Positions 17,975 to 27,920 of a stretch of 64,000 nucleotides of DNA are shown piece after piece. The stretch comes from a virus (taxonomy: Duplodnaviria > Caudoviricetes): IMG/VR virus record IMGVR_UViG_3300021400_001148, positions 96,001 through 160,000 of that record; one strand, 5' to 3'. The position numbers were made by a program, and so were the translations under genes. A model generated the notes under the pieces. The model was not told the origin of the DNA, did not search any database, and saw nothing but the letters and a program-made list of their open reading frames with translations. Within the stretch, counting starts at the first letter, position 1, and the number at the start of each line of letters is the position of its first letter.

Positions 17975-18963
17975 TTTCCGTATTCTCCGTAACACCATTT
18001 TAACGGAATAATAAAGATGCGGACTTTTTCCGTGAATAGAATAGTATGAAGTCGGTGTTTCCCCGGGGTACGGATGTGGTTGACAGTCAGGATGTTATGC
18101 GGAAGCGCTTTGGGGGCCCCGGGGAAAAATAGGGGAAGAAAGTGGAAGAAAATGGAAAAAAGTGGAAAAATTGGCCTTCCGAACTGCGGCTCGTGCGGCC
18201 GCGACCCCCTGGAAACAGTAAAAAATTATTAAGTTACGAAAAAAAATCGACATATCCCCGGGGCCCGGCGCAATTCAATCAGCGGCGAAGTCCTTTCCGC
18301 ATTCAGCACATTTTATCGGAATATATTCTGCACAATATTTTATTTTTGTATATTTGTATAACCCCGGGGGTCCGGCAGTTTCCTTTTCCCCTGACCGGTA
18401 TTATTCCCCGGGGTTTTTATTATAATGGAATACGTTCGGCTACATAAGGCTGCAATTGTCAAAAGGTCGAAAAATCATCTATAGGAAATTCCGGAAAAGA
18501 GGGTATTTTATTGTCAAAAGGTCGAAATTCAGATGAAGTCCAAGTTCAAGATAGGAATGGAATCCCCGGGGGTTGTGATTGACACCACCTCTTGGGGATA
18601 TTCCCCCGGGGCGGGTGTGGATGTATTTTACCCACAGTGGATGAGGGCGGTTCTTTCTCCCCGGGGCGTGAACGACATCGGTGCCATATGGTTGTTCGGG
18701 GAAAGTATGAAAATGACCGGCCACGGGGATGTGTTCATCTTCAGGAACCAGAACCGGCTTAAGTACTACGGGAAATGAGAAAGGTTGACAGTCCCTCTGG
18801 TTTTAGGAGGATTTTCGAAGTCGGGGTGAAATATATTTTCGACCCGTATTTCTGGTACTATTCCCGGTACGAGCCTCCGCAGGATGAAAATCCCAATTCT
18901 TTCAGGGACTGGAACAGATTTTCAGAGCGGTGGTAATATTTATAGAGGATAAAACTTTTATAT

Positions 18964-19149
18964 ATGCCAGAAAGGGTTTTCAGTGGACTTATGATTGCAT
19001 TCGGGCTTGGGGGTGTGTTCTATTCCCTCGCGCATCTTATGCTTGTCAATCCCATCGCCGGGGTTGTCGGTTTCCTTGTGAGTATGATTGTGGCGATACT
19101 GGGTCTGGACGACAGTGCGAAGAACGACGAACGCAACGGGAAAAAATAA
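18964..19149 (+). CDS. Small membrane protein
   Basis: Two hydrophobic helices. Confidence 0.5.
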   Translation: MPERVFSGLMIAFGLGGVFYSLAHLMLVNPIAGVVGFLVSMIVAILGLDDSAKNDERNGKK

Positions 19150-19257
19150 CAGATTGAAACTTTTTTTGAATTTTTGCTTACGATTTTTTATTTTTTCGTA
19201 AGTGAATTTTTTGAAAACTGTAAGCAAAAAGGGGCTAACCTGAGAAAGGCTGGTCCC

Positions 19258-19911
19258 TTAATATTTTTTCGGTGTGTCGTGCATCCGTCTGAAGACATTG
19301 AGGCATTGGATGCTCCAGTTTATGAAATATACCTCCCGGGGGTTGGCGTTCATATATCCGCGGGAGACAAGTGCTCTTCTGGTGTTGAACATCTTGCTCC
19401 TGAGACTGATGGTATCTATCCCCGGGGAATCCGGTGTGCGGACACAGTGCCGGTAGAAAAATTCAATGTTTCTCATATTCTGTTTGGTTGGTCCCTGTGT
19501 ATCTTGTTTTCCGGGCGGTGCATTTTCCTGAACTCGTTGAGGTATTGGAGCGAGTAGTTTACGAAATAATGTGCCCCGGGGTCTTTGTTTTTGTCCCACC
19601 ACAGCATCTGGGAAGGAAAGACGAAAAGGCGGCCGTACCAATATTCTATGCCTATGCTTGCAGGGGAATCCATTGAATGTCCGGCGTGCTTGTTTGCAAA
19701 TTCAATCCATCTCATAATAATAGTCTTCCGTGTGCTGGTCTACCCATTCCGGGTTTCTTGTCCGTGGCCAGTTGGGGCCGAGTCCAAGTGCGATGTCCCC
19801 GGGGTACTGGATAAAAGAAAAGCGCTCCCAGAAGAAAATATCATCGGGAGTGCTGTCGAAGAGGCTGTCCTCGGGGAAATATCTTGCCGGCGATTCTGGG
19901 CCCCTTTCCAT
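19258..19911 (-). CDS. Three coupled small hypothetical ORFs (19702-19911, 19473-19715, 19258-19476)
   Basis: Overlapping stop/start junctions downstream of the DUF1599 gene. Confidence 0.45.
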
Positions 19912-19913
19912 TG

Positions 19914-20495
19914 TTACTTCCTGTGCAGGGCTTCTACTGCCATTATTGAATAGGCCGCAAGGTCCCTCAGCGTGTCTTCAATGCTTTCGTCCTTGACCTT
20001 CTGTTCAACCCCGGGGGATGTAAGGGTCTTCAGCCTGCGGTACTTGTCGCCGATACGCATAACATATGAATTGATGCCGAACTCCTTGTAGGATTCATAT
20101 GCAGCGTCACCGTAATCGTTGTTCTTCCGTTCGTGGAGGTCCATAATCTCACGGGCGATGGTGTCAAATGTGAGGATGCGATTCGTCTGGAAATCTGCTT
20201 TGGCTGCGGCGACTCCCTCATCGGAAATTCTTTCCTTGTCAGGGCCACAGCTCTCCCAAGGGCGGTAGGTGGCGTATTCCTCCCACCATTTTTTTCCTTC
20301 AAGCGTTGGAGATTCCTTCACTTCCGCCTCTGGTGCCACATAGGGCTTCCCTGATTTGTCTTCCTCTACCGGCACATTCCAGTATCTCGGTGTGTTTGCA
20401 TTAAGTTTATTCTTTACCATACTTTGTTTGTATTTTTTGTGGACCCCGGGGACGGTGACACTCCGCCTTACGCCCGGTAAAAGCCGGGGCTTCAT
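19914..20495 (-). CDS. DUF1599/Nmad1-like nucleotide-modification-associated protein
   Basis: ERKNNDYGDA...RIGDKYRRL...ESIEDTLRDLAAYSIM. Confidence 0.75.
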   Translation of the reverse strand: MKPRLLPGVRRSVTVPGVHKKYKQSMVKNKLNANTPRYWNVPVEEDKSGKPYVAPEAEVKESPTLEGKKWWEEYATYRPWESCGPDKERISDEGVAAAKADFQTNRILTFDTIAREIMDLHERKNNDYGDAAYESYKEFGINSYVMRIGDKYRRLKTLTSPGVEQKVKDESIEDTLRDLAAYSIMAVEALHRK

Positions 20496-20520
20496 AAACC
20501 AAAAGCCTCCCGGGGTTGTT

Positions 20521-21366
20521 TTATTCCAGCACTGTTATCGCACTGGGAGGGATGTTGTCGAAAGTGTAGACCGCCTGATACTGTCTGGGGTCATAGTAGA
20601 ACCTTGCCCCGGGGACTGCGGCCACATCTATTTCAAGCTGTACGAAAGTATCCCCCTCCGGATTCTTCTCCTTAAAATAAAATTCGGGTTGTATGGCGTT
20701 TTTCTTGGTGAAGAAATATATCCTCGATGTGTCGGCCTTCACATTCTCCGGTTTGAGCAGGGTCTCGTTTTCTCCCTTGGTGTGCCCGCCGAAGCCTTTC
20801 CACTGGCTCAGTTTGGGGTTGAGGCCGATGCGGAGGATTTTCTTCAGATGGCGGGTCTTGCAGAAATGGTAGAGTTTTCCCAGTTTCCGTACCTCGTCGG
20901 TAAGGTCCTCGGTGAACTTCTTCTCGAGCGAGACTGTCAGGCATCTCCCCCCGGGGATTCCCGAAAAACTTGAAACCCGTTCACTGACATATGCCCAGCC
21001 GAAATCCTGTGCACGGCTGATGGCTTTCCACTTGATGGTCTCCTCCATTTCCTGATTGGTTATGTGGATGATGATATGATTCTTATCCCCGGTAATCAGG
21101 ATGAACCCGTTGTACTCCCCCGGGGTGTATTCACTGGGGGTGTATTCATTGATGGGGCTCAGGTTGAGGAGACTGCACAGGTGCTTTACCAGCATTTCCG
21201 CGGGGTAGGTCCTCAACACCGCCTCGTCCAGCGCAAGAAGCGGGGCGTATTCCATCTTCGCCATATCCTCATCCAGTGACACCGGCCTGAGCCTTCCTCC
21301 GGTTATCATCTCCCCGGGGAAACCTCTGACCTCGCCGGTCTTTTCATCTATTCTTGCTTTTTCCAT
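20521..21366 (-). CDS. ADP-ribosyltransferase-fold (Tpt1/KptA-like) domain protein
   Basis: LYH..TRHLKKILRIGLNPK...RIYF...VYTFDNIPPSAI; start placed at MEKAR downstream of a TATATTTG box. Confidence 0.55.
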   Translation of the reverse strand: MEKARIDEKTGEVRGFPGEMITGGRLRPVSLDEDMAKMEYAPLLALDEAVLRTYPAEMLVKHLCSLLNLSPINEYTPSEYTPGEYNGFILITGDKNHIIIHITNQEMEETIKWKAISRAQDFGWAYVSERVSSFSGIPGGRCLTVSLEKKFTEDLTDEVRKLGKLYHFCKTRHLKKILRIGLNPKLSQWKGFGGHTKGENETLLKPENVKADTSRIYFFTKKNAIQPEFYFKEKNPEGDTFVQLEIDVAAVPGARFYYDPRQYQAVYTFDNIPPSAITVLE

Positions 21367-21881
21367 CTCTATGCAAATATACAAAAAATATTTGGAATTG
21401 TGAATAAAAGACCCCGGGGGAAAGATGCCTTTATTAAAAAAAAGCGCACGATGGAGAACATACTTCACGGTTAAAATTAAATTCGCCCCCTGCTTGTGCC
21501 TACTACTTTCTTTCGACATTATAAAGATACGAAAAATATTACTGACTTTACCGGCCTCGGCGCAATAAAGCCCCCGGGGGGAAATAATACGCCCACACTT
21601 CGGCGCAGGTTGGAGTCTAGTTTCTGCGGTTGGGGTCACTGCTCCGCAAGTATGGCTACTTCCTTTCACCAGTACAAAGATAGCAAAAAAATCTGAGAAC
21701 CCCGGGGACTGGGCGCAAGGTGCGCTGCTGAAAAATGCGCTGCTGAAAAAAAAAAGAAGCCCGACATCTCACGACGGCGGACTTCCGAATAAATGTAAAT
21801 AATGATACTAGTAAATAATGATAAAAGTCAGTACAAATATACAAAAAAATTTTCAGACTTTGCCGTGTACGGCGCAGCCCG

Positions 21882-22703
21882 CTACATCTCGTCAAGCGGT
21901 TTCTGGGGAACACCGTCCAGAACCGGAAGGTCCCTGTCCTGACGGGCCTTGACAATCGCACGCCCGAAGTTACGGTAATAGGATTTCAGTACCTCGTCGT
22001 AGATTTTCTTGAACTGCCCCGGGGATACTTTGTATTTCTTCAACTCCAGTTCGGTACGCTTGTCGGAAAGGAAATCCTCCTTGTTGTCGTTGAGGTATTT
22101 GATGTTCCGGTATACCACTGTACTTTTAAGAGCCTTCTCTTCTTCTTCCGGGGATTTAGCCTGAAGAACAGCGGCGTAGATATTGTTGATATTGGCGTCG
22201 GTCTCCGCTTTCTCGTAGTAGTAAAAGACAAAGGCCACGGCTCGCGGAATCAAGCTCATGCTGGCGAGACTGGCAGTAGCTGTCCGGTATATATTCTCGT
22301 CACGGACCAAGTTCGGCCTGATTCCGGAAGCGTGCTGGAATGCGTGGTGGAGTTCGTGCTGAAGGTTCAGGGAACTGATGAGTTTCTTCTCACTGACGAT
22401 ATACCCGGAGTTGAGGTAGATGCTCTTCGTGGCTTGGTTGTAACTGGAGTTCATGCCACCCCAGGAACTCGCACGCTGGTAGTCGGCCATAGTCTGGAAC
22501 GGAACGACCCTGTATACCACGGGGATTTCAATTTCTTTCCCCGGGGTTTTTATAGTCGCCCACTCATATCCAGTCAGGGTGTCACTTATCGGAGGATTGC
22601 TCTTGACTTTCTCGGATATCGCCTTCCAGATTCTTCCGGCCTCCGAGGCGACACTGTCATTCACCCCGAGTTCCTCGTTGATGTACTGTTTGATTTCTTC
22701 CAT
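21882..22703 (-). CDS. Putative zincin metallopeptidase
   Basis: LQHELHHAFQ (HExxH) with downstream Glu. Confidence 0.6.
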   Translation of the reverse strand: MEEIKQYINEELGVNDSVASEAGRIWKAISEKVKSNPPISDTLTGYEWATIKTPGKEIEIPVVYRVVPFQTMADYQRASSWGGMNSSYNQATKSIYLNSGYIVSEKKLISSLNLQHELHHAFQHASGIRPNLVRDENIYRTATASLASMSLIPRAVAFVFYYYEKAETDANINNIYAAVLQAKSPEEEEKALKSTVVYRNIKYLNDNKEDFLSDKRTELELKKYKVSPGQFKKIYDEVLKSYYRNFGRAIVKARQDRDLPVLDGVPQKPLDEM

Positions 22704-22706
22704 GTA

Positions 22707-23201
22707 TCAGTTATTCGGGTTTGTCCAGCCCCGGGGGATGTCCGTGTAGGCATCGCCCCTGAGCTGCTGCTTCCGCCAGTCGGAGGTATAGTGGTAGACC
22801 TGCCCCCGGGCCGCCTTCAATGTTTTCTCATATGCCCGTCTGCACTCTTCCTTCGCCGCATTGACAAACTCCGGGGCCTTGTCGTTGAGGAACGCGTCGG
22901 AGTCAATCATATTGTAGGCCTTGCAGTAAAAAGCCGCAAAGTATCCGTCGCTCGGTGCCTTGGCGTATGCCTCAACAACTTTCTCCCACTCGTCGTTTAT
23001 GCTCTTCACATACCGTTTCTTGCCCTCGTCACCGGTCTTGTGTTCTGTCACGGTAGCACTGTAAACGACGGAACCTATGCATATCACGAACTCCCTGTAG
23101 GTTTCAGCATACACATAGTTGAAGTTGAGGTGCTCGTGCTGTGACTTCCCCGGGGTGAGGAAGAGCAGGAGAGAAATTATGGAGAGGATTGTTCTTTTCA
23201 T
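22707..23201 (-). CDS. Secreted/periplasmic hypothetical protein
   Basis: MKRTILSIISLLLFL signal-peptide-like N-terminus. Confidence 0.6.
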   Translation of the reverse strand: MKRTILSIISLLLFLTPGKSQHEHLNFNYVYAETYREFVICIGSVVYSATVTEHKTGDEGKKRYVKSINDEWEKVVEAYAKAPSDGYFAAFYCKAYNMIDSDAFLNDKAPEFVNAAKEECRRAYEKTLKAARGQVYHYTSDWRKQQLRGDAYTDIPRGWTNPNN

Positions 23202-23249
23202 GCGTTGAGGTAAAATGTGGGACTCAAACGAGTACCAATAGCGCCGGTA

Positions 23250-23558
23250 TCAGAGGTCCTCCGGCTTCTCGAGGGTTTTCATCTCCGCAAGGATGCGGGT
23301 ACGGTCGGCGGCGGTGAGGGTGGGCCGTGCGACAGGTCTTGTGTGTGGGCCGGCGGGGTTGGGGTCGTGCGGTGGACGGGTGTCTTCTTTTTTCCCCGGG
23401 GTGTTCCCTTCATCGTGAGTCACCTCCCGGTGTATGGTAAGCACTTCGTCCTCTATCACATTGACCTCGTCCTTTACATAGTCCAGTTCTGACTTAAGCA
23501 GATAGTATAATACTATTGCAAGGGCAATTATAATTGCCAGAGAATACACGGTGTTCAT
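23250..23558 (-). CDS. Membrane-anchored hypothetical protein
   Basis: MNTVYSLAIIIALAIVLYYLL anchor; start adjacent to the upstream stop. Confidence 0.55.
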   Translation of the reverse strand: MNTVYSLAIIIALAIVLYYLLKSELDYVKDEVNVIEDEVLTIHREVTHDEGNTPGKKEDTRPPHDPNPAGPHTRPVARPTLTAADRTRILAEMKTLEKPEDL

Positions 23559-23559
23559 A

Positions 23560-23868
23560 CTACTCTTCCGCGGGCCTCCACATCCCTCCTGAATAACGCT
23601 GGGTGTTGAGGATACCCAGAAACTCCTCCGGGGTGGCATATGAAACTCTCTCCCGGAGCACCCCGTAACCGTTGAAGGAAGTCCTCTCCTTGACAAAGCA
23701 GGCCCCGGGGTATCCGTCCCCTCCCCTGTAATAAGTAATGCAGTCATATCCCAGACTCTTCCTCTGGTTGTCTGAAAGGTAGAGGGTTGTAGCGTGGGAC
23801 ATCTCATATTCCCCGCAGCCGCTCTTGGCAATGATATTATCAATAATGGTGATACAAGAATTAGTCAT
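23560..23868 (-). CDS. Hypothetical protein
   Basis: Packed ORF. Confidence 0.55.
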   Translation of the reverse strand: MTNSCITIIDNIIAKSGCGEYEMSHATTLYLSDNQRKSLGYDCITYYRGGDGYPGACFVKERTSFNGYGVLRERVSYATPEEFLGILNTQRYSGGMWRPAEE

Positions 23869-23870
23869 GT

Positions 23871-24575
23871 TTATTCTTCTAAGAGTTTTTTTAATTCAGC
23901 AGTCTTCTTTGGTAGCCCTAATTTTTCAATATGCTTTCTGATACTGGTTTCACTAACCCCTAATTCCCTAGATACAGCACTACGGTTGTAATCGTTCTCT
24001 TTTAATATTTTTATAAATTCTTCGTCACTTAAATTTATTTTGGCTCTTTGCTTTGATGCGCAAGAAAGACAATATATTGCTGCCTTTGTTTTGACCTCTC
24101 TCCCACAGATGGGACAATACTTTTTTTCTTTTTTACTTACCCCACAATAATTTTCTGTTTGGCTGTGGCAGTTGGGACATAAGATTTGCAAGTTTTCTAA
24201 TCTATTATCTTTATGGTTACCGTTTTTATGGTGTAACTGACACACCAGTGGTTTTCCTTGCCATTCACTAACACCGCATATCTCGCATTTATTCTCCTTA
24301 AAACCGTCCTTAATTAATCTGCTTTTTAATTTCGAAGAAGTAATGAATGTGCCATCTATAGTCAAGTATTCCTCGGTTTTTTTCTGTAGTTTTGGAATTT
24401 CTTTGGGGTGGAAAGTGAAATGCTGATTTGTGATATTGTACAATTCCATTTTCCTTTTAAGTGTACTAACATTATTTCCTTGGCATGGAATTCCTAATTT
24501 CCGCAAAGTTTCTTGATAAGAAAAACTGGCATTCACTGCCGCTCTTATGTCGCTTTCATTCCAATTGTATTTCAT
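23871..24575 (-). CDS. Free-standing HNH homing endonuclease with zinc finger and C-terminal HTH
   Basis: CEICG...LHHKNGNHKDNRLENLQILCPNCH; CPICG..CLSC; AVSRELGVSETSIRK; AT-richer than neighbours. Confidence 0.85.
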   Translation of the reverse strand: MKYNWNESDIRAAVNASFSYQETLRKLGIPCQGNNVSTLKRKMELYNITNQHFTFHPKEIPKLQKKTEEYLTIDGTFITSSKLKSRLIKDGFKENKCEICGVSEWQGKPLVCQLHHKNGNHKDNRLENLQILCPNCHSQTENYCGVSKKEKKYCPICGREVKTKAAIYCLSCASKQRAKINLSDEEFIKILKENDYNRSAVSRELGVSETSIRKHIEKLGLPKKTAELKKLLEE

Positions 24576-24593
24576 ATTTTAACACTATTTAAG

Positions 24594-24665
24594 TTGCCCC
24601 ACCCCGAGTTGAACAGGGATTACTGGTGCCAAAAACCAGTGTAATTACCGTTATACGATAGGGCA
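24594..24665 (-). tRNA. tRNA-Gln(TTG)
   Basis: Acceptor TGCCCTA/TGGGGCA; anticodon arm CTGGT-TTTTGGC-ACCAG; T arm CCCTG-TTCAACT-CGGGG; no encoded CCA. Confidence 0.9.
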
Positions 24666-24727
24666 GTCAGTTATAAATAGTGTTAGTACGAATTTTTTTT
24701 ACTTTATTTACAAACATTTTAGTGTTG

Positions 24728-25264
24728 TGGTCCCTGCAGGACTTGAACCTGCGACCCACTGATTCGTACCACTATAGCTTTCGCTACCAAAATATTGGGT
24801 CTCCCACCCAAGAATCGCTTGTTACAGCTTATTTTGTTTGTGGTCTGGACTCTATCTTAACCATATTGAAATCTTGCAAGATATAAAGTATGACTTAATG
24901 CTGGGTCTCACAGCCATCGGCCACATAGGTTCTCTTTCCTCATACTCTATAATTTCAACTTAGGTTCCTCCTGTATAGTCTCTACACACTGTCTATAAAC
25001 TTAACCGTCTATTATCATTTAAGAAATTCGAACAACTTACAATTTCCATAGATAATATGGAGAACTTAATTTTTTACGGTTAAAGTTTAATAACATTGGC
25101 TCGGTATTAGCATGAGCGAGGTTCATCCATATGATGATTTTCTTAACCTTCTTTTAGCTTTAACCGAATTAGGGAGGTTCTACATCCGGAGTTTCCCCCG
25201 GTGCATACAATTTCTTTTTTCAAAGAACTAATCAGTTGCTCTGACCAACTGAGCTTAAGGGACC
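24728..25264 (-). tRNA. Intron-split tRNA with Ile2/Met-like body; anticodon ambiguous (exons about 25264-25227 and 24764-24728)
   Basis: 5' half GGTCCCTTAAGCTCAGTTGGTCAGAGCAACTGATT; 3' half AATCAGTGGGTCGCAGGTTCAAGTCCTGCAGGGACCA; acceptor and anticodon stems pair across the insert. Confidence 0.85.
24765..25226 (-). ncRNA. ORF-less group I intron (IC3-like)
   Basis: P AATTCGGTTAAA (25159-25170), Q AATACCGAGC (25099-25108), R GTAGAGACTATA (24974-24985), S AAGATAGAGTCC (24847-24858); GAAA-capped P2; terminal G at 24765. Confidence 0.9.
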
Positions 25265-25271
25265 ATCTATG

Positions 25272-25727
25272 TTACTCGCCGTCAGCGATGCGGTCGATGT
25301 ATCTTTCATTGTGTTCCGCCACACCGTTCGCTTTCCTGTCGAACTCCCTTATCTGGGAATAGAACTCGCCCAATACATCCTGAAGGTCGGCCAGCCTCTT
25401 CCTCAGGGACTTCACAGCATTCAGATAGGCATTCCTCTCGGCCTTGGCGCGGGAAATCCTCTTGCCCTTTTCCACATCGAAGGTATCCCCCGGGGCTACA
25501 GTAGCGTATCCTCTGGCAGTTCCAGTGACATCCCCACCCGTCATACGCTTTCCGTCAATCCATCCGTAAAAGTAAAGCCCCTCCATGATGTTGGTTATGG
25601 GACGAGGCAGTATCGCCTGATAATCGATGACAGTCACAACCAGATTCTTCTTCTCGTCGACATAAGTCTTGGGAGCGTAGGTCCGCAGCTTGATGCTGTT
25701 GCGGTTAAATTTGGTAAACTTCTTCAT
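25272..25727 (-). CDS. Conserved phage hypothetical protein
   Basis: GDTFDVEKGKRISRAKAE motif; own promoter at 25755-25762. Confidence 0.7.
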   Translation of the reverse strand: MKKFTKFNRNSIKLRTYAPKTYVDEKKNLVVTVIDYQAILPRPITNIMEGLYFYGWIDGKRMTGGDVTGTARGYATVAPGDTFDVEKGKRISRAKAERNAYLNAVKSLRKRLADLQDVLGEFYSQIREFDRKANGVAEHNERYIDRIADGE

Positions 25728-25900
25728 ATTTTTTCTCTTTTAAATTTCTTTCTGCAAATATACAAATAAATTCCGGAATAATGCCCAGAGTGGCGCAATA
25801 TCGTACTCAAACGAGTCCTAAACCGCTTATATAGAGATGGTTATCATAGTTTTTGCACAATTTTCAAAGGGTATTATAACAGTGCAAATTACTATATTGT

Positions 25901-26709
25901 CTAGCAAACCCTTAGGATGGTAATGTTGAAAGGATTCGGCGATGTGCTCTTGACTGTCATGCTCTCCCCCGGGGAAAGAGCCTCAACCCTTTCCTGTGAA
26001 ACCCCGAGGACGAAGAAAGTCAGTTCATCCTCCCCCGGGGACACCGAGAGACTGGTCACCATAACTCCAGACGGGCCGTTCGGGGTCACGACAATATACT
26101 CCTTCCTCCCCTCTCCGTGGGACTGGAAATAAACATTCTCAATCATAGTTCCTAGATTTTACGGTAACGGAAATCCACCCCGGGGTTTCGCTCCTCGAGT
26201 TGCTTCTTGATGGCCTGTGCGTCAGACCTCCAGTCACAGCAAGCAACCATTGTCCACTTGCCTGCATCGTCATTGTATCTGCTTACGATGTACATATTAA
26301 TACCTGTGCAAAATGGTTTCTTCGAAAGTTGCGTTGAGGCCCTGCCCCACCAGTCTGTAGTAGTAGTCCCTCGCGGTGGCATAGTCCTCAAATGTGGTGG
26401 GCTCATACCCGTCAGCGGTGCAGTCCACGAGATATCCGGTTACTGTCTTCATACCCACCTCCCCTTTGAATTGCGTCCGTATACCCTTTCCAGCATATAG
26501 ACATCGTCAAAGAGGTTCTCCGGCTTGTCCACTCCGTCACCTCGCAGGTCCGAGACTTTCTTTAGACGCCTCTTCAAAATACAGATGCCGGTGTTAACCA
26601 GATTTTTGTCAATCAGCCAGTCGGCATATACCTTTGCACCCTTCAGAGTGCTTTTGATGGCGTAGACGACACTGCCCGCGCCCTCAACCACATAAATGAA
26701 ATTGCCCAT
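25901..26709 (-). CDS. Four small hypothetical ORFs (26449-26709, 26297-26452, 26152-26295, 25901-26146)
   Basis: Tightly coupled minus-strand ORFs. Confidence 0.55.
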
Positions 26710-26801
26710 ATAGTTTCCTCCTTCTTTTAAGCCTCCGGGGGAAAATGGTACTCAGATGAGTCCGAGCCCCGGGGTATATGTAACATTTTTGTTTCTTACC
26801 G

Positions 26802-27614
26802 CTAAATATCCTCAACAATCTCCGCCCCGGCCATGCCATACCTGAGAAACTTTCCGTCAGACAGTATTCCGTCCCCGGGGAATTTCCCGTACTTCAAAGA
26901 CACATGTTTCCACAGTCGCCGGAGAAATACCTTTGCTTCCCCGATGGTGCGCAAGTGAACCCTGTCAGCGGTGCAGTATTCACGGAGGCGGGCTCTCTCC
27001 CACTCCGGCCCGCATAACTCTATCCTTGCCTTCATGCCACAATCCTCCCCCAGAGTTTTCTTACATCACCGGCACTCATCCTGCTCCAGTCCACGCCCCA
27101 CATCACATCAGAACCATACCAAGGTCTGCACTGCAAACCCAGGAGGTCACCGGCCCATACCATAGAATAGGCTTGAAACTTTGTGTGCTTGCGGTCTCTG
27201 AGCTGTTTCCCGAAATCCGCGACAACAGTCTCCACACCAGGCTGACAGCGAAGATGGTTCTCTATCTCCGCCACCATAATGTTTTTTGTAATCCTCATAT
27301 TATGAATACATTAAAGCCAGTACCTCGTCGGCAACCGTACCGAGGTCATAATAGATTTTCGTCCCGTCCATGCAGGTCAGCCACACCACCTCGCTCACAT
27401 CATCCCGAACCTGCCTCGCGATGTCCGCGGTCTTCTTGTCGAAGGCATAAAACGAGGTCGCTCCCCCGTGCCCGTCATTTGACACCCGTCCGATGGGCGT
27501 CCCGTCACAAACAAGTGTGGCAATGTAATCGCAGGTCTCTTCCGAGTGGATGCCGAACTCAACATCCCTCAAGGCGAACATATGCCCGCCAATGTACTTG
27601 AATCTCTTTTTCAT
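26802..27614 (-). CDS. Three small hypothetical ORFs (27300-27614, 27032-27298, 26802-27035)
   Basis: Coupled ORFs behind the promoter at 27634-27641. Confidence 0.6.
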
Positions 27615-27920
27615 ATCTTGTTCTTCTTTGTTACAAAGGTACAAAAAACTCTCCGGACTATGGCGGATTTGGCGCAGCGTATGCGGATGTTACAAAAGTG
27701 GTGTTTACAAATGTAACATTCGAAAATGTAACATAAGTAATTGTTACAGAGGAAGTTATAAAAAAATATATTAAGTTACGAAAAAATTTTGAAACATCCC
27801 CCGGGGTAGGCGCAAGGAGGAAATGTCGGCACAAACAACTAATATAACAAAAAAATTTGGGACCCCCGGGGAGTTAGGCGCAAAAGTGGCAGCCCCGCTT
27901 GCGCCTAAAAAGAAAACGGG

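What the first reader, a model, noticed from the sequence alone, without database searches (positions are those of the whole stretch)
24765..25226. Self-splicing group I intron inside a phage tRNA anticodon loop
Seen: two tRNA halves separated by about 462 nt that contain all four P/Q/R/S core elements, P3 (CCTCC/GGAGG), a GAAA-capped P2 and a terminal G. The guide ATTG can pair with the 3' exon AAT (P10), placing the insertion at 36/37 as in the Azoarcus tRNA-Ile(CAU) intron. Known: IC3 introns occur in bacterial and plastid tRNAs, whereas classic phage introns sit in protein genes. Standard tRNA finders would probably miss this gene.
Basis: partly seen in the sequence, partly recalled or inferred. 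Interest (0 to 1): 0.72.

Follow-up and report, generated by a model that had tools for sequence, protein, structure and literature searches.

The report
Group I intron in damaged phage tRNA

Summary
On the minus strand, two tRNA halves (25264-25231 and 24764-24728) flank an ORF-less group I intron of the IC3 type.

Rfam RF00028 does not hit it, even at E<=10. That is a false negative. RF00028 scores a compact relative at 57.8 bits, and a profile of 24 compact tRNA-Leu introns hits this locus at E=1.9e-10. On 35 relatives, 49 core pairs (P2-P9 and the P3/P7 pseudoknot) are 93.7% paired, and 24 of them show changes on both sides.

All close relatives are tRNA-Ile2(CAU) genes with the intron at 36/37, as in Azoarcus. 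The window's copy lacks CUCA of the anticodon loop and has an extra A before the D stem. By homology the intron is therefore 25230-24765 (466 nt), not 25226-24765. Splicing at those sites leaves a 3-nt loop.

The gene lies in a low-GC island with tRNA-Gln and a free-standing HNH endonuclease. Relatives of that endonuclease sit beside or inside many such introns.

This scan has already found the same phage tRNA-intron lineage on other DNA. Splicing itself was not tested.

The parts
25231..25264 (-). 5' exon: acceptor strand, D arm and 5' strand of the anticodon stem (ACUGA), plus a single loop base, U25231. There is an extra A between the acceptor and D stems (UAA instead of UA, 25257-25255). 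CUCA of the anticodon loop is missing relative to all relatives.
24765..25230 (-). Group I intron, IC3 type, 466 nt, no ORF. Boundaries were set by homology to relatives with intact tRNA(CAU) exons.
25207..25232 (-). P1 hairpin. It has the U25231.G25208 wobble at the 5' splice site, the A25232-U25207 pair, an intron-internal stem UUCUUU/AAAGAA and a GAAA loop (25221-25218).
   Evidence: read from the sequence; same hairpin in L061, L113, L114, L116, L118
25204..25211 (-). Internal guide sequence 5'-AUUGUAUG. AUU pairs with the 3' exon AAU (P10). G25208 pairs with U-1. A25206 replaces the G that pairs with C34 in 31 of 34 relatives.
   Evidence: the strain in run X5 has G here
25186..25201 (-). 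P2, 6 bp capped by a GAAA tetraloop. All six pairs covary.
   Evidence: helix 1
25172..25177 (-). P3 5' strand (CCUCCC). It pairs with 24972-24967.
   Evidence: helix 2
25101..25167 (-). P4 (UCGGU / ACCGA) enclosing an extended P5. P5 carries a receptor-like motif (GCUAAA...CAUGC). U25162 replaces a G conserved in 32 of 34 relatives, so the last P4 pair is lost.
   Evidence: helix 3
24986..25100 (-). P6 with a long lineage-specific extension.
   Evidence: helices 4-5
24976..24982 (-). P7 5' strand (G-A-GACUA). A24981 is bulged, and G24980-C24848 is the presumed guanosine-binding pair. It pairs with 24852-24847, forming a pseudoknot with P3.
   Evidence: helices 6-7; L113 has compensating changes at two pairs
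24967..24972 (-). P3 3' strand (AGGAGG).
24860..24965 (-). P8 with the canonical 11-nt GAAA receptor (CCUAAG...UAUGG), a 7-bp extension, a variable insert and a bulged 8-nt palindrome CUUGCAAG (24880-24873).
   Evidence: (helices 8-9)
24847..24852 (-). P7 3' strand, inside AAGAUAGAGUCC.
24765..24843 (-). P9 domain. A closing helix CCAC (24843-24840) / GUGG (24772-24769) covaries with CUAC/GUAG. A terminal hairpin UAGC-GAAA-GCUA lies within 24787-24774. The tail UACG ends in omega-G 24765.
   Evidence: (helix 10)
24728..24764 (-). 3' exon: AA, the 3' strand of the anticodon stem (UCAGU), variable loop, T arm, acceptor strand and discriminator A24728. No CCA is encoded.
24593..24665 (-). Ordinary tRNA-Gln(UUG), 62 nt downstream, in the same low-GC island.
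23871..24575 (-). Free-standing HNH homing-type endonuclease (234 aa), 152 nt downstream of the split tRNA.

Best explanation
This is an ORF-less IC3-type group I intron (466 nt, 25230-24765, minus strand). It belongs to a lineage that occupies many tRNA genes of large gut and rumen phages.

It sits in a gene descended from tRNA-Ile2(CAU), at the site of the classical Azoarcus intron (between positions 36 and 37). The RNA should fold as follows:
- P1 presents U25231.G25208 as the 5' splice site.
- The P2 GAAA loop docks on the 11-nt receptor in P8.
- The P9 GAAA loop docks on a receptor-like motif in P5.
- P7 holds the guanosine site.
- Omega-G 24765 and the P10 pairing (AAU with AUU) fix the 3' splice site.

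In this phage strain the exon has lost CUCA of the anticodon loop and gained an A before the D stem. Splicing at the homologous sites therefore joins ...ACUGAU to AAUCAGU.... The product is a tRNA-shaped RNA with a 3-nt anticodon loop that cannot decode. The gene is most likely a recently inactivated tRNA that still carries a largely intact ribozyme.

The gene is part of a low-GC island that also holds tRNA-Gln and a free-standing HNH endonuclease. That endonuclease probably mobilises or protects such intron-bearing tRNA loci.

Shown here: homology, fold, covariation, the deletion, and the island. Inferred: catalytic activity, the splice sites actually used, loss of decoding, and the role of the HNH enzyme.
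For: Fold and family:
- 49 pairs of P2-P9 plus the P3/P7 pseudoknot are 93.7% paired on 35 sequences. Shuffled controls give 83.4% (0 of 500 reach the observed value) and slid controls 34-42%. 24 pairs change on both sides.
- The P9 closing helix covaries.
- The compact relative L008 passes RF00028 at 57.8 bits.
- A profile of compact introns hits this locus at E=1.9e-10.

Splice sites:
- With the 3' site fixed at the aligned omega-G, at least 30 of 35 relatives give a 7-nt anticodon loop with U at -1.
- Their guide sequences match each tRNA's exons in both P1 and P10.

Deletion:
- Eight relatives read ...CUCAU|intron|AA... and splice in silico to tRNA(CAU). The window's homologous product is not recognised as a tRNA.
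- The deletion allele is real. It appears in an identical ENA contig (L112) and in 100%-identical RNA-library contigs from two studies.
- A related strain in DNA run X5 carries the four bases, and also G at the guide position.

Ribozyme integrity: the window has only 4 departures from columns conserved at 90% or more, which is mid-range for the family.

Island and HNH:
- GC is 0.36 against 0.49-0.50 in the flanks.
- The island has no CCCCGGGG where about 7.5 are expected.
- The HNH gene matches phrog_10822 at 9e-42.
- HNH homologues lie near 18 of 59 intron-tRNA loci (17 apart from the window's own), and one lies inside an intron.
Against: - No splicing product was seen. The RNA-library contigs span both exon-intron junctions unspliced.
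- RF00028 gives no hit. A custom core model gives only three weak partial hits (14.5-15.9 bits, E 0.06-0.15), although all three lie inside the intron.
- P1 keeps only two exon pairs here.
- The window's only two departures from conserved intron positions (A25206 in the guide, U25162 at the end of P4) both touch 5' splice-site recognition. The ribozyme may therefore be impaired, or adapted to another site.
- Two alternative splice-site choices each give a formally perfect 7-nt loop.
- A dead tRNA that persists in samples of 2013 and 2017 is somewhat unexpected.
Confidence: 0.6

Rival explanations
1. The intron is 25226-24765, inserted at 36/37 of a working tRNA whose loop after splicing is UUAGUAA (anticodon AGU, Thr). 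After the deletion, four former intron bases serve as U33 and the anticodon.
For: The reading obeys the formal rules: U at -1, G at omega, and a 7-nt loop. ARAGORN accepts the product as tRNA-Thr(AGU). The 3' site is the family's own.
Against: In the conserved P1 hairpin, U25227 pairs with A25212, not with a G. The only register that puts it opposite G25208 gives just two wobble pairs (read). By homology, 25230-25227 (UAGU) are intron bases in the five closest relatives. From textbook identity rules, the body is Ile2-like and has G2-C71 where bacterial tRNA-Thr has C2-G71. ARAGORN needs a shifted acceptor register with mismatches.
Confidence: 0.08
2. ARAGORN's reading. The gene is tRNA-Arg(ACG) with a 462-nt intron between positions 32 and 33 (25230-24769). 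The 5' site is the homologous one. The 3' site has moved 4 nt upstream, so the intron's conserved UACG tail becomes U33 plus the anticodon.
For: It keeps the U25231.G25208 wobble. G24769 ends the intron, and the loop UUACGAA is a textbook Arg loop.
Against: ARAGORN makes the same Arg(ACG) call for relatives that clearly have CAU anticodons, because UACG is the conserved intron tail. G24769 is invariant and pairs with C24843 in a helix that covaries. For P10, UAC pairs with the guide at only 1 of 3 positions, against 3 of 3 for AAU. The genome already has an uninterrupted tRNA-Arg(ACG) at G000 351799-351873. From known ArgRS identity rules, position 20 is U here, not the A that ArgRS needs.
Confidence: 0.07
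3. Both the tRNA and the ribozyme are dead. The intron no longer splices, and the locus is a decaying remnant carried along with the HNH island.
For: P1 is weakened. The guide mutation A25206 is not compensating, and the last P4 pair is lost. Only unspliced junctions appear in RNA-library contigs.
Against: Core conservation and pairing are as good as in relatives with intact exons: 3 unpaired cells out of 49 pairs. The strain in X5 that still has the four bases is a close relative (15 differences and 8 gaps over about 350 nt), so the deletion is probably recent and there has been little time for decay.
Confidence: 0.15
4. It is not an intron at all, only a chance resemblance. The Rfam group I model finds nothing.
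For: There is no RF00028 hit, even at E<=10.
Against: Searches show homology, covariation in every core helix, and guide sequences matched to the exons across the family. RF00028 also misses every long relative.
Confidence: 0.01

Closest known systems
Azoarcus sp. BH72 pre-tRNA-Ile(CAU) group I intron (subgroup IC3; type Ile2.5Ug of Williams 2020, bioRxiv 10.1101/2020.01.27.920355)
   Same: The host tRNA type in all close relatives is the same, and so is the insertion site (after U36, ...CUCAU|...G|AA). The guide GUG pairs with CAU. From my knowledge of the Azoarcus structure, it shares the IC3 core with GAAA loops on P2 and P9 and an 11-nt receptor in P8.
   Different: This intron is 466 nt against about 205 nt, with long extensions in P5, P6, P8 and P9 and a bulged palindrome in P8. 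It is carried by a phage. The exon here lacks CUCA, so no CAU anticodon exists. RF00028 does not detect it.
[quoted passage not shown]
   Same: The core sequence blocks are the same (AAUUCGGUGAA, ACCGAGCCAA, GUGUAGAGAC, AAGAUAnAGUCCAGAC, GGUAnG tail). A profile of 24 such introns from IMG/VR contigs hits the window at E=1.9e-10.
   Different: The insertion site differs (34/35 against 36/37), as does the tRNA. Those introns are compact (about 196-205 nt).
Free-standing homing endonuclease plus ORF-less intron ('collaborative homing'), as for F-CphI and the psbA intron of cyanophage S-PM2 (Zeng, Bonocora and Shub 2009, cited from memory)
   Same: An ORF-less group I intron has a free-standing endonuclease gene a short distance downstream on the same strand. 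Endonuclease relatives recur beside other members of the intron family, and once inside one.
   Different: The target here is a tRNA gene, not a protein gene. The enzyme is an HNH type. No cleavage site is known. Only 18 of 59 loci have the neighbour, and none of the closest Ile2-type relatives does.
'Enigmatic' tRNA introns of Lak megaphages (Devoto et al. 2019, PMC6784885)
   Same: These are also introns in the tRNA genes of very large gut phages.
   Different: Rfam could not classify the Lak introns, and nobody has explained how they are removed. This one has a full group I core.

Membership tests
Group I intron (IC3, bacterial tRNA anticodon-loop type) | Core helices P3-P8, P4-P6 and P7, with the P3/P7 pseudoknot, supported by covariation | tested here: met
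   93.7% of cells are paired, 24 of 49 pairs change on both sides, and 0 of 500 shuffles reach the observed values.
Group I intron (IC3, bacterial tRNA anticodon-loop type) | Guanosine-binding G-C pair in P7 next to a bulged A | tested here: met
   G24980-C24848 with A24981 bulged. These columns are invariant in 35 sequences. Binding itself was not tested.
Group I intron (IC3, bacterial tRNA anticodon-loop type) | U.G wobble at the 5' splice site inside P1, with the guide paired to the exon | tested here: inconclusive
   The U25231.G25208 wobble is present and homologous to relatives. Only one further exon pair remains, and the guide base A25206 is mismatched.
Group I intron (IC3, bacterial tRNA anticodon-loop type) | Terminal omega-G and P10 pairing with the 3' exon | tested here: met
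   G24765 aligns with the column that is G in at least 90% of relatives. AAU pairs with AUU at 3 of 3 positions.
Group I intron (IC3, bacterial tRNA anticodon-loop type) | Match to Rfam RF00028 at or above the gathering score | tested here: not met
   There is no hit, even at E<=10. The model also misses all long relatives, but it hits the compact L008 at 57.8 bits.
Group I intron (IC3, bacterial tRNA anticodon-loop type) | GAAA tetraloops on P2 and P9 with receptors in P8 and P5 | tested here: met
   GAAA loops are at 25195-25192 and 24782-24779. P8 has CCUAAG...UAUGG, and P5 has the variant GCUAAA...CAUGC. Docking is inferred.
Group I intron (IC3, bacterial tRNA anticodon-loop type) | Self-splicing in the presence of guanosine and Mg2+ | not testable with these tools
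   RNA-library contigs show only unspliced junctions. Contigs cannot show absence.
tRNA-Ile2(CAU) gene interrupted at 36/37 (Ile2.5Ug) | Splicing at the homologous sites gives a 7-nt loop CUCAUAA with anticodon CAU | tested here: not met
   The loop is UAA (3 nt), and ARAGORN finds no tRNA in the product. Eight relatives meet the feature.
tRNA-Ile2(CAU) gene interrupted at 36/37 (Ile2.5Ug) | tRNA body homologous to Ile2-type relatives | tested here: met
   The acceptor, D, T and anticodon stems align with L022, L113, L114 and L118. The exception is one extra A after position 8/9.
Collaborative homing pair (ORF-less intron plus free-standing endonuclease) | An endonuclease gene lies next to the intron-bearing gene, and this recurs across the intron family | tested here: met
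   The HNH gene lies 152 nt downstream. Both HNH copies in the 355-kb genome lie within 1 kb of an intron-bearing tRNA or tRNA half. 18 of 59 family loci have a homologue within about 1.5 kb.
Collaborative homing pair (ORF-less intron plus free-standing endonuclease) | The endonuclease cuts the intron-less allele at or near the insertion site | not testable with these tools
   This needs a cleavage assay.

The most novel reading that the evidence does not exclude
After the 4-nt exon deletion, the ribozyme uses a shifted splice site, either 3' at G24769 or 5' at U25227. Bases that are intron in every relative would then become U33 and the anticodon. This would turn an Ile2(CAU) gene into a working Arg(ACG) or Thr(AGU) tRNA, that is, a change of tRNA identity made by moving an intron boundary.
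Probability: 0.1. Interest if true: 0.8.

Novelty: new member of a known kind. Interest (0 to 1): 0.45.

Why it matters
A 2014 review stated that every phage group I intron then known sat in a protein gene (PMC3984707). In 2019 the Lak megaphage paper called introns in phage tRNAs unreported (PMC6784885). I found no open-access paper that describes group I introns in phage tRNA genes.

This locus belongs to a large phage lineage of classical IC3 tRNA introns that standard tools miss: default ARAGORN, Rfam tRNA and RF00028. tRNA sets of large phages are therefore under-counted. Automatic calls for split tRNAs can also be wrong. Here ARAGORN calls Arg(ACG) only because of the conserved intron tail.

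The damaged exon next to an intact ribozyme is a natural case of an intron outliving its host gene. The neighbouring HNH gene makes intron mobility in tRNA genes testable. This scan has already reported the same lineage on other DNA, so this single locus adds detail rather than a new class.

Tried and rejected
- Rfam RF00028 was run at the gathering score and at E<=10. It gave no hit, which I judge a false negative.
- A custom covariance model R1 was built from the core of 22 compact introns. It gave only three weak partial hits (14.5-15.9 bits), all inside the intron, because the long inserts in P5, P6 and P8 break the alignment. This is not usable as proof.
- BLAST against 50,697 deposited phage genomes, with the locus and with 10 kb around it, gave no match.
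- Reads and contigs of three RNA runs and one DNA run were laid on 24400-25500.
  - No spliced joint appeared in the RNA runs.
  - In run X7 nothing covers the flanks outside about 24696-25288, but contigs cannot show ends or absence.
  - A 467-nt skipping joint in DNA run X5 has five other letters between its sides (loop CUGUUAA, an intron-less Asn-like tRNA of another organism). It is not a splice product.
  - A back-joint in X4 with 26 foreign letters is a path through a related intron.
- I looked for a recoded genetic code to explain the short ORFs at 26-54 kb. Freeing no single stop codon opens that stretch into long reading frames, although more and longer frames appear overall when TGA or TAA is read through.
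- I searched viral contigs for the odd 3' flank of the contig-end intron and found none.
- I considered group IA (phage td-like, with P7.1/P7.2) early on. I rejected it once the compact relatives and the receptor motifs showed an IC3 layout with an extended P8.

Full report
**What is there**

The window is bases 96001-160000 of a 354,809-bp IMG/VR virus record. All features lie on the minus strand. A tRNA 5' half begins at 25264 and a tRNA 3' half ends at 24728, and about 465 nt lie between them. Default ARAGORN and Rfam find only the neighbouring tRNA-Gln at 24665-24593. With introns allowed, ARAGORN calls a split tRNA.

**Is it a group I intron?**

RF00028 gives no hit, even at E<=10 on 1.2 kb around the locus.

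- The S-element pattern GGTTAAGATANAGTCCAGAC finds 89 stretches in IMG/VR. 79 of them lie in tRNA genes that ARAGORN calls as split.
- The compact tRNA-Leu(UAA) members, with introns of about 200 nt, pass RF00028 (L008, 57.8 bits). None of the long members does, including ones with perfect exons.
- A DNA profile of 24 compact members hits the 355-kb genome only at this locus (E=1.9e-10, 1.8e-6 and 0.006, in order along the intron) and at a second intron.
- On a 35-sequence alignment (A1) I wrote the helices P2, P3, P4, P5, P6, P8, P9 and the P7 pseudoknot from the window's sequence.
  - 93.7% of cells pair, against 83.4% when shuffled (0 of 500) and 34-42% when slid.
  - 24 of 49 pairs change on both sides.
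- A further helix closes the P9 domain: CCAC with GUGG, which covaries with CUAC/GUAG.
- P8 carries the canonical 11-nt GAAA receptor, P5 a variant of it, and P2 and P9 end in GAAA. From my knowledge of the Azoarcus structure, this is the IC3 layout.
- A custom covariance model of the compact core gave only three weak partial hits, all inside the intron. The long inserts defeat such models.

**Which tRNA, and where are the splice sites?**

All family members end in ...GUGGUAnG, and the last G is the omega-G. With that site fixed, at least 30 of the 35 aligned members give a 7-nt anticodon loop with U at -1. Their guide sequences match each tRNA's exons in both P1 and P10: Leu ACUU/GAGU with AAA/UUU, Ile2 CAU/GUG with AAU/AUU, Lys, Arg-UCU and Ser likewise.

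The window's closest relatives come from viral and metagenome scans (L061, L080=L118, L113, L114, L116, L117, L022, L035). They all read ...CUCAU|intron...G|AA.... In silico they splice to tRNA(CAU) with an Ile2-like body. This is the classical Azoarcus site, Ile2.5Ug in Williams 2020.

The window reads ...ACUGA-U|UAGUUCUUUGAAA.... The five closest relatives (L061, L113, L114, L116, L118) start their intron with the same UAGUUCUUUGAAA, but the four loop bases CUCA are absent here. There is also an extra A between the acceptor and D stems.

By homology the intron is therefore 25230-24765 (466 nt). The U.G wobble is U25231.G25208. The spliced loop is UAA, and ARAGORN finds no tRNA in that product.

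**The two other readings**

ARAGORN's boundaries (25230-24769) give UUACGAA (Arg-ACG). Both obey the U-1/omega-G rule.

- ARAGORN's 3' site needs G24769, which is invariant and pairs with C24843 in the covarying helix. It also has poor P10 pairing.
- ARAGORN makes the same Arg(ACG) call for relatives with clear CAU anticodons, because UACG is the conserved intron tail.
- The genome also has an uninterrupted tRNA-Arg(ACG).

**Is the deletion real?**

Yes. An ENA metagenome contig (L112) is identical across it. RNA-library contigs from two studies match at 100% across both junctions: X7 covers 24970-25253 and 24730-24863, and X4 covers 24967-25500. A DNA run from another study (X5) holds a related strain with TGAG inserted behind 25231 on the plus strand, which is CUCA on the minus strand. 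That strain also has G instead of A at the guide position 25206. The deletion is therefore strain-specific and probably recent.

**State of the ribozyme**

The window departs from columns conserved at 90% or more at only four places, two of them in the exon. It has 3 unpaired cells among the 49 pairs, which is mid-range for the family. The two intron departures are A25206 in the guide and U25162, which abolishes the last P4 pair next to J4/5. Both concern 5' splice-site recognition. Activity may be reduced, but I cannot tell by how much. No spliced product was seen in contigs, and contigs cannot show absence.

**Context**

The split tRNA, tRNA-Gln and a 234-aa HNH endonuclease (23871-24575; phrog_10822, E=9e-42) form an island.

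- The island's GC is 0.36, between flanks of 0.49-0.50.
- The flanks carry CCCCGGGG about every 236 bp. The island carries none, where 7.5 are expected.
- HNH homologues lie within about 1.5 kb of 18 of 59 distinct intron-tRNA loci (17 apart from the window's own). Most sit directly 3' of the tRNA, and in L042 the homologue is inside the intron.
- The genome's only other HNH copy lies about 1 kb downstream of the tRNA 3' half of the intron at the contig start.

This resembles collaborative homing, a comparison I make from memory of the S-PM2 psbA case. The closest Ile2-type relatives have no such neighbour, and no cleavage was tested.

**What is known, and verdict**

- A 2014 review says all phage group I introns then known were in protein genes (PMC3984707).
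- The Lak megaphage paper calls phage tRNA introns unreported and unclassified (PMC6784885).
- Williams 2020 lists Ile2.5Ug among four classical bacterial types.
- I found no open-access description of group I introns in phage tRNA genes.
- Earlier notes of this scan describe the same phage lineage on other genomes.

The locus is a new member of a known kind. It is a real IC3 intron in a phage tRNA gene, with its boundaries corrected by 4 nt at the 5' end, in a host gene that is probably broken.

Noticed in passing
L003:1269-1616 and L002:1-482 (G000 354462-354809 and 1-482): A second intron of the same family spans the ends of the contig. Its 5' exon is a tRNA-Lys(UUU) half (acceptor strand GUCCCCG, anticodon-stem strand CCACA). 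Its 3' exon reads as a class II tRNA-Leu(UAG) half (anticodon-stem strand GCAUG, acceptor strand CGGGCCC). The two halves cannot pair. The 99-nt end overlap lies inside the intron, so the 'direct terminal repeat' and the circular closure may be a join between two different intron-bearing tRNA genes.
   Followed up: partly
window 23871-24575 (-); also L008, L019, L038, L098, L042 and others: HNH endonuclease homologues lie within about 1.5 kb of 18 of 59 intron-bearing tRNA loci. They often start 6-21 bp past the tRNA 3' end on the opposite strand. In L042 the homologue is inside the intron. Both copies in this genome lie close to an intron-bearing tRNA or tRNA half.
   Followed up: partly
window 18061-27871, with a gap at 23711-25487: CCCCGGGG occurs 47 times in the window, against 0.65 expected. 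34 of these lie in 9.8 kb. The only long gap is the low-GC island that holds the HNH gene, tRNA-Gln and the split tRNA.
   Followed up: partly
window 24873-24880 (-): An 8-nt palindrome, CUUGCAAG, sits as a bulge in the extended P8 of all long family members. It stays palindromic when it changes (CUAGCUAG, CUCGCGAG, GUUGCAAC). It is too short for a hairpin, so it may be a dimerisation or protein-binding site.
   Followed up: partly
L076:6109-6759: One family member, in a tRNA-Leu(UAA)-like gene, ends ...GGUACA where all the others have G at the omega position.
   Followed up: no
window 24844-24991 (-), runs X4, X7, X12: In three ruminant-gut metatranscriptome runs, contig depth over the conserved intron cores is many times that of the variable parts. 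Many joints lead into other sequence. Numerous related introns are therefore present in these RNA libraries.
   Followed up: no
G000 1208-1364: With introns allowed, ARAGORN also calls a tRNA with a 71-nt anticodon-loop insert and no ribozyme core. It lies next to tRNA-Leu(CAA).
   Followed up: no
L116:2232-2830: The relative with the most similar P5 region also has imperfect exons: two mismatches in the anticodon stem, an A-C mismatch in the D stem, and an extra base in the D loop. Exon decay beside a well-kept intron may not be unique to this phage.
   Followed up: no
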